Positions 53,101-56,100 of a DNA stretch of 64,000 bases are shown piece after piece (position 1 is the first letter of the stretch; every line of letters starts with the position of its first letter). Origin of the DNA: Escherichia coli (GTDB lineage: Bacteria > Pseudomonadota > Gammaproteobacteria > Enterobacterales > Enterobacteriaceae); assembly GCF_003334255.1 (NCBI RefSeq), contig NZ_QOWU01000008.1; one strand, written 5' to 3'. A program made the position numbers.

Positions 53101-56100
53101 AGGCTTTGGCGAATTTCTCGCGGTTAGCCGGATCTTTCACGTACTGGTATCCCGGATACGTATCCGGCAGCGCGCCCATATCGCAGGCACCCTGAACGTT
53201 GTTCTGACCACGAACCGGGTTAACACCCGCATGCGGCTTACCGAGGTTACCGGTCAGCATCGCGAGGCTGGTCAGAGAACGCACGGTTTCCACGCCCTGG
53301 TAGAACTGGGTTACACCCATGCCCCACAGGATGGCGGCGCTTTTCGCCTGGGCATACATCCGTGCCGCCTGACGAATCTCACTGGCGCTGACGCCGGTGA
53401 TATCTTCAACCGACTCCGGCGTGTAGCCTTCAACGATTTTACGATACTCTTCAAAGCCTTCTGTACGTGAAGCGACGAACGCTTTGTCGTACAGATTTTC
53501 TTCAATAATGACATGGCCCATCGCATTCAACAGCGCGATGTTCGAGCCGTTTTTCAGTGCAATGTGCATGTCAGCAATGCGCGCGGTTTCAATTTTGCGC
53601 GGATCGCAGACGATAATTTTCGCCCCGTTACGTTTAGCGTTAATTACGTGATTCGCCACGATTGGGTGGGAATCCGCCGGGTTGTACCCGAAAACGAACA
53701 CTAAATCGGTATTATCAATTTCGTTAATAGCATTGCTCATTGCGCCATTACCGACCGATTGGTGCAGACCTGCAACCGATGGGCCGTGTCAGACACGAGC
53801 GCAGCAGTCAACGTTATTGGTACCAATAACGGCGCGCGCAAATTTTTGCATTACATAGTTGGTTTCGTTACCCGTACCACGCGAGGAGCCGGTCGTCTGG
53901 ATGGCATCCGGACCGTACTTCTCTTTGATGGCGCTCAGGCGCTCGGCAACGTAATTCAGTGCCTCATCCCAGGAAACAGGTTCGAGTTTGCCGCCACGCT
54001 GGCGACGGATCATGGGGGTTTTCAGGCGCGGGGTCAGGATCTGGGTATCGTTAATGAAGTCCCAGCCATAATAACCCTTCAGACACAGGGTACCCTGGTT
54101 GGTTTTCCCCTGCGCTGCCTCCGCCCGGACGATTTTGCCGTTATCGACGACCAGGTTGATTTTGCAACCTGATGCGCAATAGGGGCAAACCGTGACGACT
54201 TTTTTCATCGGTCTCGCTCCAGTTAATCAAATCACGCATACGCGCTCTCGACTACAGTATGCATCTTTTATGCCACATTTTATGTGGGGTCATTCCCTGA
54301 TATTACGGGCACTATTTATTCAAAACTCTGACGAAAAACAGGCTGTCGTCAGTTTTGACGTGACGAAACGAAATACCGCGTGACAGCCATCACGCGGCAG
54401 ACATTTTATTTTTTCTCGACGACGGGACCTGCCTGATACCCGCCGCCCAGCGATTTCATCAACTGAATGCTTTGGATCACCCGGCGGCTGTCCAGCATCA
54501 GTAATGACATCTCTTCGGCAAGCACTGGCAACCGGGCTTCGGTGGCCTGTAAGCGGCTGGTTAAGCCGCGCTGATAGGCGGCCTCGGCAGCGCGCTGGGT
54601 AAAGCGCGTGGCTTCCACGCGTTCAGCCTGCATTTCTCGCTCGTCGTTGAGCGTTTGCAGACGCGTGCCGTTGACGGCAACGTCACGCACCGCGTTCAGT
54701 ACTGACTGGTTGTAACGTTCAATCATCATGTTGCTGGCGGCGCGCGTGCCTTCGAGATTGGCATTCAACCGTCCACCGTCAAACAGCGGCAATTTCAGAC
54801 CCGGGATGAAGTTGAACTGGCGACTGGTTTTTTTGAATAAGGTATGCAGATGGATGGAGTCCAGACCGAAAAACGCTTTGATATCAAAGCTCGGATAGAA
54901 CAACGCCCGCGCGGAATCCACCTGATCTAATGACGCCTGAACATACCAGCGCATGGCTTGCAGATCCGGGCGTCTGGCGAGCAACTCATAAGAGAGTGTC
55001 GCCGGAATGCCGGTCTGGACTTGCGGTAATGCCACCGGTCTGATCTCCGGCATATCGCTGGCTCCCGCGCCAATCAATGCACGCAGAGATTCTCGCGTTT
55101 CGGTGATTTGCCCTTTGACGGCAACAATTTGTTTATCGACCGCCAGAATCTGTGCCCGCGCGCCGTGGAAAGGCACTTGCGCTTCCAGACCGTGCGCCAC
55201 TTTACTCTGGTGCGCTTTCACCGCGTAATCAATCACATCGTGAGTTTGTTCTAACAGATCGAGCATCTGATAGCTGGCCTGCATACTGTAATAAAGCTGC
55301 GCTACGCCCGTGGCCAGCGATAGCTCTACTGCTGCGGTTTCTGCCAGCGCGGCATTATGCGCGCCAATGGCGGCGGCAACCGCTGAGCGATGCACACCCC
55401 ACAAATCAAGATCCAGTCCGGCAAACAAACCTACTGTGGCTTCCGTATAGTACGGCCCGTCCATACCCAGTGCTGGCGCATCCATTGAATAAGGGCTTAA
55501 AAAGCCGTTCGCCGAGACACGTTGGCGGTTGAGCATCCCTAACGCTGCGACCTGTAATTGTGAACCGGCATCTAACAAATCGGCCTGGGACTGCGCTTTT
55601 TCTTCCCGCAGTTTCGCTTCGGCGAGGGTGTGTGAACCACTTAGCGTCCGTTGGATCAGCGCATCCAGCTGCGGGTCATTGAGTTGTTTCCACCACTGCG
55701 CCTGCGGCCAGCCGGAGCTGGCAAGATGAATATCGTCGGCCAGTTTGATTTGTTCCGGTTTGAGCTGTTGATGAGGTGCAGAATCCTTACGTACCAGGGC
55801 ACAGCCGGAAATCAGCGTCGTGCTGCCGAGAATGCTGCACAACAGCAGACGTGAAAGTTGACGATTGATCATTGCGTGGCTCCTTGTGCCTGTTCCGTGG
55901 CGGGCGTTAATGCCGGGGCTGTCCAGTCTGGCAAGCGGGCGAAAAGCTGGCAGACGTGTTGCTCCTGTTTTAATAAGGTGGGCAGGATGGCCTGAGAGGC
56001 GGGTGTCTCTTCAAGCGTTATTTGAGGAGAACGGCTGAGTGCGGTTGCCAGACCGGCAGCGTATTTCTCCAGGGCGTCGGCAAACTGACCTGCTCTGTCC

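What the first reader, a model, noticed from the sequence alone, without database searches (positions are those of the whole stretch)
54209..54405. Sigma-54 promoter and upstream inverted repeat for fdhF
On the minus strand TGGCATAAAAGATGC has the sigma-54 -24 GG / -12 GC geometry ~50 bp upstream of the fdhF ATG. About 80-100 bp further upstream an inverted repeat tcgtca-N9-tgacga (54344..54364) is a candidate enhancer-binding (FhlA-type) site, fitting formate-inducible expression.
Basis: partly seen in the sequence, partly recalled or inferred. Interest (0 to 1): 0.3.

Follow-up and report, generated by a model that had tools for sequence, protein, structure and literature searches.

The report
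Known fdhF sigma-54 promoter and enhancer
This is the already well-studied control region of the E. coli formate dehydrogenase H gene (a sigma-54 promoter plus an upstream FhlA enhancer), identical to the K-12 sequence, so the finding is correct but ordinary.

Summary
The window is E. coli. Its 197-bp mdtP–fdhF spacer (54209–54405) is identical to K-12 MG1655.

- **Promoter:** TGGCATAAAAGATGCA lies at 54275–54260 (minus), with GG at −25/−24 and GC at −13/−12 of a predicted start at 54249. It is the motif under a published sigma-54 ChIP-seq peak, listed as experimentally confirmed in EcoCyc. It is kept in 77 of 80 enterobacterial fdhF loci.
- **Inverted repeat:** TCGTCA-N9-TGACGA is real but sits at 54366–54346, 2 nt from the stated coordinates. 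One 6-nt repeat like it arises in 53% of shuffles, so it is not evidence by itself.
- **Conservation:** the repeat lies in a strongly conserved block, TCGWCA-CGTCA-N4-TGWCGA, present in 73 of 78 species. The block sits 91 nt from the −24 element in 62 of them.
- **Conserved dyad:** the constant dyad is the nested CGTCA-N4-TGACG (54360–54347). It recurs upstream of the FhlA-regulated hydN and hyfA genes.
- **Other elements:** a second block, TTTCGTCAG, lies 32 nt downstream, and a distal GTCAC is also kept.

Only the exact dyad needs refining. Nothing here is new. The FhlA footprint papers were not held, so binding is inferred.

The parts
54260..54275 (-). Sigma-54 (-24/-12) promoter of fdhF: TGGCATAAAAGATGCA, with GG at 54274-54273 and GC at 54262-54261
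   Evidence: 13.5 bits, rank 3 in the window. Identical to the ChIP-seq motif OS41. Conserved as TGGCAT-N6-TGCA in 77 of 80 loci. No sigma-70-like promoter in 54000-54700.
54249..54249 (-). Predicted transcription start, 19 nt downstream of the motif centre at 54268, giving a 41-nt leader
   Evidence: Rule and 'Distance 41' taken from PMC4591121 Table 1. Applied to window coordinates by inference. Not mapped here.
54346..54366 (-). Enhancer block A: TCGTCA-CGTCA-AAAC-TGACGA (-117..-97).
   Evidence: Present as TCGWCA-CGTCA-N4-TGWCGA in 73 of 78 species. Lies 91 nt from the -24 TGG in 62 species, 82-83 nt in 8 and 92 nt in 3. Unchanged in the most divergent E. coli genome examined.
54347..54360 (-). 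Core dyad CGTCA-N4-TGACG, the most likely FhlA box
   Evidence: Unique in the window, with 0.09 expected. Best FhlA weight-matrix score in the spacer, 8.1 bits. The same CGWCA-N4-TGWCG dyad lies upstream of hydN and hyfA in K-12. The arms stay constant (right-arm centre T in 6 of 73 species) while the spacer varies among AAAC, AATA, ATTT, CTTT and others.
54328..54336 (-). Enhancer block B: TTTCGTCAG (-87..-79). It is a direct copy of the TTTCGTCA in block A, 32 nt downstream of it.
   Evidence: families D1 and D2 (spacing 32). At least 80% conserved in the same ungapped column across 73 species.
54380..54385 (-). Distal half-site-like TGTCAC (-136..-131), inside the descending arm of the mdtP terminator hairpin
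   Evidence: GTCACG is repeated 20 nt apart (D3). A GTCAC is kept about 18 nt 5' of block A in most genera, although only 14 of 80 loci have mdtP upstream. Its role is inferred.
54374..54399 (-). Intrinsic terminator hairpin of mdtP, an 11-bp stem followed by TTTCGTTTCG
   Evidence: RNA fold -18.1 kcal/mol, z -4.65.
54296..54311 (-). Conserved block C: TGCCCGTAATATCAGG (-62..-47), lying between the enhancer and the promoter. Function not assigned.
   Evidence: Only a weak resemblance to the FhlA box.
54217..54220 (-). Shine-Dalgarno GGAG, 8 nt before the ATG
   Evidence: Read directly from the sequence.
52061..54208 (-). fdhF coding sequence, 715 codons, with TGA (selenocysteine) at 53791-53789
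   Evidence: SECIS_2 hit at 53742-53796.

Best explanation
This is the native regulatory region of E. coli fdhF (formate dehydrogenase H).

RNA polymerase carrying sigma-54 binds TGGCAT-N5-ATGCA at -24/-12 as a closed complex that cannot start transcription on its own. The formate-sensing AAA+ activator FhlA binds an enhancer about 80-135 bp upstream of the start. The enhancer is built from GWCA-type half-sites:
- a core dyad, CGTCA-N4-TGACG;
- an overlapping extra TCGTCA;
- a second TTTCGTCAG three helical turns downstream;
- possibly a distal TGTCAC.

When intracellular formate is high, FhlA contacts the closed complex by DNA looping. It then uses ATP hydrolysis to open the promoter, and fdhF is transcribed from about position 54249.

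What is shown and what is inferred:
- Shown here or in retrieved papers: sequence identity with K-12, sigma-54 occupancy at this motif, and conservation and fixed spacing of the elements.
- Inferred: which bases FhlA touches, the looping step, and the exact start site.
For: - Identity: the spacer is 100% identical to K-12, the flanking genes are mdtP and fdhF, and a SECIS lies at the in-frame TGA.
- Promoter: the weight-matrix score ranks 3rd in the window. Published support comes from sigma-54 ChIP-seq with EcoCyc-confirmed status, genomic SELEX and Salmonella ChIP-chip and expression data. The element is kept in 77 of 80 species, 51-84 nt before the ATG. No sigma-70-like promoter is present.
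- Enhancer: block A is kept in 73 of 78 species with sequence-variable spacers. Its distance to the -24 element is 91 nt in 62 species, or about 9 nt shorter (close to one helical turn) in 8 species. By contrast, the promoter-to-ATG distance drifts between 51 and 84 nt.
- The blocks travel with fdhF: only 14 of 80 loci have mdtP upstream.
- CGWCA-N4-TGWCG is unique in the window and recurs upstream of hydN and hyfA. TCGWCA/TGWCGA hexamers cluster in the hyc-hyp spacer.
- All 10 spacer differences in a 95%-identical E. coli strain fall outside the promoter and blocks A and B.
- FhlA as the fdhF activator.
Against: - FhlA contact with these particular bases was not shown here. The primary footprint and deletion papers (Birkmann & Bock 1989; Schlensog et al. 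1994; Leonhartsberger et al. 2000) are not in the held library.
- The published 13-site FhlA matrix gives only 8.1 bits for the core dyad, rank 98 in the window.
- The 16-mer consensus CATTTCGTACGAAATG quoted for FhlA matches at best 9 of 16 positions in the spacer. That is a chance-level match, reached or exceeded at 436 of 64,000 window positions.
- The start site is predicted, not mapped.
Confidence: 0.93

Rival explanations
1. The repeat region is an enhancer, but it is bound by a regulator other than FhlA. Candidates are the FhlA paralogue HyfR or an unrelated factor that recognises TGACG/CGTCA.
For: No FhlA binding data could be overlaid here. The FhlA matrix and the 16-mer consensus fit only weakly.
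Against: Retrieved papers name FhlA as the fdhF activator. The same dyad type occurs upstream of other FhlA-regulon operons, hydN and hyfA, and related hexamers occur in the hyc-hyp spacer.
Confidence: 0.04
2. The inverted repeat acts as an RNA hairpin, for example as a back-up terminator for read-through from mdtP, and not as a DNA binding site.
For: It lies just downstream of the mdtP terminator, and a T-run (TGTTTTT) follows 5 nt after it.
Against: - The RNA fold is weak: -7.9 kcal/mol, z -1.67, matched by 12 of 200 shuffles. The true terminator folds at -18.1 kcal/mol, z -4.65.
- The block is conserved in 59 or more loci that have no mdtP upstream.
- The outer stem carries a mismatch in 45 of 73 species, and no compensatory pattern is seen.
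- Arm sequences stay constant while the spacer varies. This is the signature of protein-DNA recognition.
Confidence: 0.02
3. The -24/-12 match is a non-productive or chance sigma-54 site, and fdhF is transcribed from another promoter.
For: The bare motif is common in the window. Many sigma-54 sites in E. coli are transcriptionally silent.
Against: The promoter is listed as experimentally confirmed, it carries a strong ChIP-seq peak, it is conserved in 77 of 80 species, no sigma-70-like promoter lies in the spacer, and expression is sigma-54-dependent in Salmonella.
Confidence: 0.01

Closest known systems
E. coli K-12 fdhF promoter region (sigma-54 promoter with FhlA-dependent upstream activating sequence)
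   Same: The 197-bp spacer is identical base for base. The motif is the same as ChIP-seq peak OS41, and the predicted 41-nt leader is the same.
   Different: Nothing differs. This is the same locus in another E. coli genome.
Other FhlA-regulon control regions in E. coli: hycA-hypA spacer, hydN and hyfA upstream regions
   Same: Each has a sigma-54 -24/-12 element with clustered GWCA half-sites upstream. CGWCA-N4-TGWCG is present at hydN (CGTCA-CTAG-TGTCG) and at hyfA (CGACA-CGGG-TGTCG).
   Different: The hyc-hyp spacer uses TCGACA/TGTCGA hexamers in a different arrangement and serves two divergent promoters. The number and spacing of half-sites differ between operons.
Salmonella Typhimurium fdhF (STM4285) promoter
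   Same: TGGCATAAAACATGCATA is bound by sigma-54 holoenzyme, and expression is 29-fold sigma-54-dependent. The related Salmonella locus L012 keeps blocks A and B at the same spacing.
   Different: There is one substitution in the spacer of the -24/-12 element, and the left hexamer is TCGACA instead of TCGTCA.
NtrC/glnAp2-type bacterial enhancer paradigm
   Same: An activator bound about 100 bp upstream acts on a closed sigma-54 complex. The enhancer-to-promoter distance is constrained (established knowledge).
   Different: The activator, its signal (formate binding to the N-terminal domain, not phosphorylation) and its binding motif are all different.

Membership tests
Sigma-54 (RpoN) -24/-12 promoter | GG and GC dinucleotides with exactly 10 nt between them, in a TGGCAC-N5-TTGCW context | tested here: met
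   TGGCAT-AAAAG-ATGCA at 54275-54260. Scores 13.5 bits with the 186-site matrix, rank 3 of about 128,000 positions.
Sigma-54 (RpoN) -24/-12 promoter | Intergenic, co-oriented with the gene and a short distance upstream of it, with no competing sigma-70 promoter | tested here: met
   The GC lies 53 nt before the ATG. The scan found 0 sigma-70-like sites in 54000-54700.
Sigma-54 (RpoN) -24/-12 promoter | Conserved in orthologous upstream regions | tested here: met
   77 of 80 enterobacterial fdhF loci keep TGGCAT-N6-TGCA, 51-84 nt before the ATG.
Sigma-54 (RpoN) -24/-12 promoter | Occupied by sigma-54 holoenzyme, with transcription dependent on rpoN | not testable with these tools
   Published for the identical sequence: ChIP-seq OS41 with EcoCyc-confirmed status, genomic SELEX, and Salmonella ChIP-chip plus microarray.
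Sigma-54 (RpoN) -24/-12 promoter | Mapped transcription start about 12 nt downstream of the GC | not tested
   Only the predicted start at 54249 is available. The primary mapping papers are not held.
FhlA-dependent upstream activating sequence (enhancer) | Located roughly 80-150 bp upstream of a sigma-54 promoter at a constrained distance | tested here: met
   Block A lies at -117..-97. It is 91 nt from the -24 TGG in 62 species, 82-83 nt in 8 and 92 nt in 3.
FhlA-dependent upstream activating sequence (enhancer) | Shares a binding motif with other FhlA-regulon operons | tested here: met
   CGWCA-N4-TGWCG is found at fdhF, hydN and hyfA. TCGWCA/TGWCGA hexamers cluster at hyc-hyp. The dyad is unique in the window against 0.09 expected.
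FhlA-dependent upstream activating sequence (enhancer) | Scores well against the published 13-site FhlA weight matrix (TGWCR-N4-TGWCA) | tested here: inconclusive
   The best site in the spacer is 54360-54347 at 8.1 bits, but that is only rank 98 in the window. It has 2 mismatches to TGWCA-N4-TGWCA.
FhlA-dependent upstream activating sequence (enhancer) | Matches the quoted FhlA consensus CATTTCGTACGAAATG | tested here: not met
   The best match is 9 of 16, which is chance level. The E. coli TATTTCGT at 54375-54368 is not conserved between species or even within E. coli. The natural hyc-hyp site also appeared to fit this idealised consensus poorly (about 9 of 16 by my own hand count on the sequence). 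I therefore treat this as a weakness of the consensus as quoted.
FhlA-dependent upstream activating sequence (enhancer) | Protected by FhlA in footprints and required for formate induction | not testable with these tools
   The primary papers are not held. Secondary sources state only that FhlA binds upstream of fdhF.

The most novel reading that the evidence does not exclude
The fdhF control region may contain conserved parts that the classical promoter-plus-enhancer description may not cover.
- Block C (54311-54296, -62..-47) is conserved across genera and lies between the enhancer and the promoter.
- A distal TGTCAC in E. coli is embedded in the mdtP terminator stem, so one stretch of DNA would serve as both an RNA terminator and an enhancer half-site.

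Either could mark an additional factor or an architectural requirement such as DNA bending. I could not check whether the older primary papers already describe them.
Probability: 0.2. Interest if true: 0.2.

Novelty: already known. Interest (0 to 1): 0.07.

Why it matters
It matters little as a discovery. This promoter has been a model sigma-54/FhlA system since the late 1980s, and the window carries the K-12 sequence unchanged.

The comparative analysis adds two modest points:
- The invariant dyad is CGTCA-N4-TGACG, not the 6-nt N9 repeat.
- The enhancer-to-promoter distance is held at 91 nt, or about one helical turn less, across roughly 70 enterobacterial species.

These points could guide the design of formate-responsive promoters.

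Tried and rejected
- **Bare GG-N10-GC pattern:** TGGC-N8-TGC is not enriched in the window (24 hits against 15.9 expected), so it cannot carry the argument.
- **Significance of a single repeat:** a 6-nt inverted repeat arises in 53% of shuffles.
- **Published FhlA matrix:** it picks the right site within the spacer but has poor specificity across the window.
- **Quoted 16-mer FhlA consensus:** it gives only chance-level matches.
- **Covariation between the W positions of the outer hexamers:** 28 perfect dyads were seen against about 24 expected. All six TGTCGA arms pair with TCGACA against 4.2 expected. This is not convincing, and the species are related.
- **RNA-hairpin reading of the repeat:** weak fold.
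- **Rfam:** no RNA family hit falls in the spacer.
- **Literature:** look-ups for the primary footprint, deletion and start-site papers failed because they are not held.
- **Void result:** the block-B columns are void because my search pattern was wrong. I read the block-B spacing instead.

Full report
**What the locus is.** The window is E. coli chromosome. A 401-nt query around the finding matches 5420 of 5426 complete E. coli genomes at 95% identity or more. The annotated features under the match are mdtP and fdhF, in the gene order mdtN-mdtO-mdtP-fdhF-yjcO-gltP. On the minus strand, mdtP ends with TAA at 54408-54406. fdhF starts with ATG at 54208 and runs to 52061, with an in-frame TGA at 53791-53789. 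Rfam places a SECIS_2 element at 53742-53796, which confirms the selenoprotein gene. The 197-bp spacer 54209-54405 is base-for-base identical to K-12 MG1655, so published K-12 data apply directly.

**Checking the promoter observation.** TGGCATAAAAGATGC lies at 54275-54261 on the minus strand. GG is at 54274-54273 and GC at 54262-54261, 53 nt before the ATG.
- The bare pattern TGGC-N8-TGC is not unusual: 24 hits against 15.9 expected.
- With the 186-site RpoN matrix printed in PMC7658346, the 16-mer scores 13.5 bits. That is rank 3 of about 128,000 positions in the window.
- One of the other high scorers is the known pspG promoter at 17743-17758.
- No sigma-70-like promoter is found between 54000 and 54700.

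**Checking the repeat observation.** TCGTCA-N9-TGACGA exists, but at 54366-54346, 2 nt from the stated coordinates. A single perfect 6-nt repeat with a short spacer arises in 53% of shuffles of the spacer. However, the spacer holds eight such pairs, which no shuffle of 2000 reached. Three of these belong to the mdtP terminator hairpin. Three belong to the TCGTCA/TGACGA family.

**Published evidence for the promoter.**
- Bonocora et al. 2015 (PMC4591121) list sigma-54 ChIP-seq peak OS41 with the motif GTGGCATAAAAGATGCA on the minus strand upstream of fdhF. Its fold-above-threshold is 41, and it is flagged as experimentally confirmed in EcoCyc. Their predicted start is 19 nt downstream of the motif centre and 41 nt before the gene.
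- In window coordinates the motif centre is 54268, so the predicted start is 54249. That puts GG at -25/-24 and GC at -13/-12.
- Shimada et al. 2021 (PMC8743547) recover the mdtP-fdhF spacer by genomic SELEX with RpoN holoenzyme.
- Samuels et al. 2013 (PMC3844500) show holoenzyme binding at TGGCATAAAACATGCATA and 29-fold sigma-54-dependent expression of Salmonella fdhF, with FhlA listed as the activator.
- Several papers state that FhlA, activated by formate, drives fdhF and binds upstream of it.

**Comparative evidence for the promoter.** One scan of 100,044 species genomes with the first 139 residues of FdhF returned 80 enterobacterial loci. In 77 of them the best RpoN-matrix hit in the 300 nt upstream is TGGCAT-N6-TGCA, lying 51-84 nt before the ATG. 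The three exceptions (L074, L078, L081) show decayed or deleted -24/-12 elements while upstream blocks remain.

**Comparative evidence for the enhancer.** I aligned 78 upstream regions, anchored on the promoter, and found discrete conserved blocks in otherwise unalignable sequence.
- **Block A** is TCGWCA-CGTCA-N4-TGWCGA, at window 54366-54346 (-117..-97). It is present in 73 of the 78 regions.
- **The inner arms** CGTCA and TGACG stay constant (the right arm is TGTCG in 6 of 73), while the 4-nt spacer varies (AAAC, AATA, ATTT, CTTT, AATC and others).
- **The outer left hexamer** is TCGACA in 51 species and TCGTCA in 22. The right hexamer is TGACGA in 67 and TGTCGA in 6.
- **More distant genera** keep the same layout with TG in place of CG. 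Atlantibacter has ATGACA-TGACA-CTTT-TGTCGA, and Arsenophonus has TTGTCA-TGTCA-TTTA-TGTCGA.
- **Distance to the promoter:** from block A to the -24 TGG is 91 nt in 62 species, 92 nt in 3 and 82-83 nt in 8, roughly one helical turn shorter. The promoter-to-ATG distance, in contrast, drifts between 51 and 84 nt.
- **Block B**, TTTCGTCAG (54336-54328, -87..-79), sits in the same ungapped column in nearly all species. It is a direct copy of the TTTCGTCA in block A, 32 nt away (D1/D2).
- **A distal GTCAC** (E. coli TGTCAC, 54385-54380) is kept about 18 nt 5' of block A.
- **Independence from mdtP:** only 14 of the 80 loci have mdtP upstream, so these blocks belong to fdhF and not to the end of mdtP.
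- **Within E. coli:** in a strain only 95% identical over the query, all ten spacer differences fall outside the promoter and blocks A and B.

**Link to FhlA.**
- In K-12, CGWCA-N4-TGWCG also occurs upstream of hydN (CGTCA-CTAG-TGTCG) and of hyfA (CGACA-CGGG-TGTCG).
- The hyc-hyp spacer carries three TCGWCA/TGWCGA hexamers within 30 bp.
- The dyad is unique in the 64-kb window, against 0.09 expected.
- The 13-site FhlA matrix in PMC7658346 reads TGWCR-N4-TGWCA. Its best hit in the spacer is exactly 54360-54347, but the score of 8.1 bits is only rank 98 in the window.
- TGWCA is its own degenerate reverse complement. This explains why such sites can be described either as palindromes or as 9-bp direct repeats.
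- The consensus CATTTCGTACGAAATG, attributed to Leonhartsberger et al. 2000 in PMC4987338, fits at best 9 of 16 positions, which is chance level.
- The E. coli TATTTCGT that resembles one half of that consensus is not conserved.

**Mechanism.** The best-supported account is the established one. Sigma-54 holoenzyme sits at -24/-12 in a closed complex. FhlA oligomers bind the half-site array at about -80 to -135. At high formate, FhlA contacts the holoenzyme by looping and opens the promoter through ATP hydrolysis.
- Shown: sequence identity with K-12, sigma-54 occupancy, conservation and fixed spacing.
- Inferred: the exact FhlA contacts, the looping step and the start site.

**Rival explanations.** The RNA-hairpin reading is weak. 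The repeat region folds at -7.9 kcal/mol (z -1.67), whereas the true mdtP terminator at 54399-54374 folds at -18.1 kcal/mol (z -4.65). The block is also conserved where mdtP is absent. Binding by a regulator other than FhlA, and a silent sigma-54 site, are both contradicted by the literature cited above.

**Limits.** The primary deletion, footprint and start-site papers are not in the held library. FhlA contact with specific bases therefore remains an inference. I also could not check whether block C or the distal GTCAC have already been described.

**Verdict.** This is an already known system, so interest is low.

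Noticed in passing
window 54296-54311 (-): TGCCCGTAATATCAGG, at about -62..-47 between the enhancer and the promoter, is conserved across most of 73 non-Escherichia species. It matches no element I could name and resembles an FhlA box only weakly.
   Followed up: partly
window 54374-54399 (-): The mdtP intrinsic terminator hairpin (-18.1 kcal/mol) contains TGTCAC in its descending arm. A GTCAC is kept at the same distance from enhancer block A in genera that lack mdtP upstream. The terminator and a distal enhancer half-site may therefore share DNA in E. coli.
   Followed up: partly
L074, L078, L081 (about 2200-2500 in each): In Entomohabitans teleogrylli, Leclercia sp. 29361 and Enterobacter sp. 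BIGb0383 the -24/-12 element upstream of fdhF is lost or decayed, while blocks B and C persist. This suggests regulatory decay or rewiring.
   Followed up: partly
window 55948-55963 (+): The highest RpoN-matrix score in the window (15.0 bits, TGGCAGACGTGTTGCT) lies inside mdtO on the antisense strand. It is not mentioned in the main text of the sigma-54 ChIP-seq paper.
   Followed up: no
window 17743-17758 (+): TGGCATGATTCTTGTA is the known sigma-54 promoter of pspG, with the same motif as ChIP-seq peak OS40.
   Followed up: partly
window 53742-53796 (-): An Rfam SECIS_2 hit (87 bits) lies at the fdhF UGA codon, as expected for this selenoprotein gene.
   Followed up: yes
window 50864-51273 (+), 40258-40328 (+), 140-210 (+): Six copies of the REP-type naRNA4 family are present, four of them in tandem between yjcO and gltP. 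sraL lies at 32880-33020 (-).
   Followed up: no
window 54273-54287 and 54236-54262 (-): Two inverted repeats do not appear conserved outside Escherichia; conservation of the downstream arm of the second was not examined. CCACAT-N3-ATGTGG overlaps the -24 GG, and GCATAC-N15-GTATGC spans -12 to +13.
   Followed up: no
L082 14870-14883: TGTCATTTTTGACG lies in the hycA-hycB spacer of K-12 and is a one-mismatch match to CGWCA-N4-TGWCG. It may be a further FhlA-type site inside the hyc operon.
   Followed up: no
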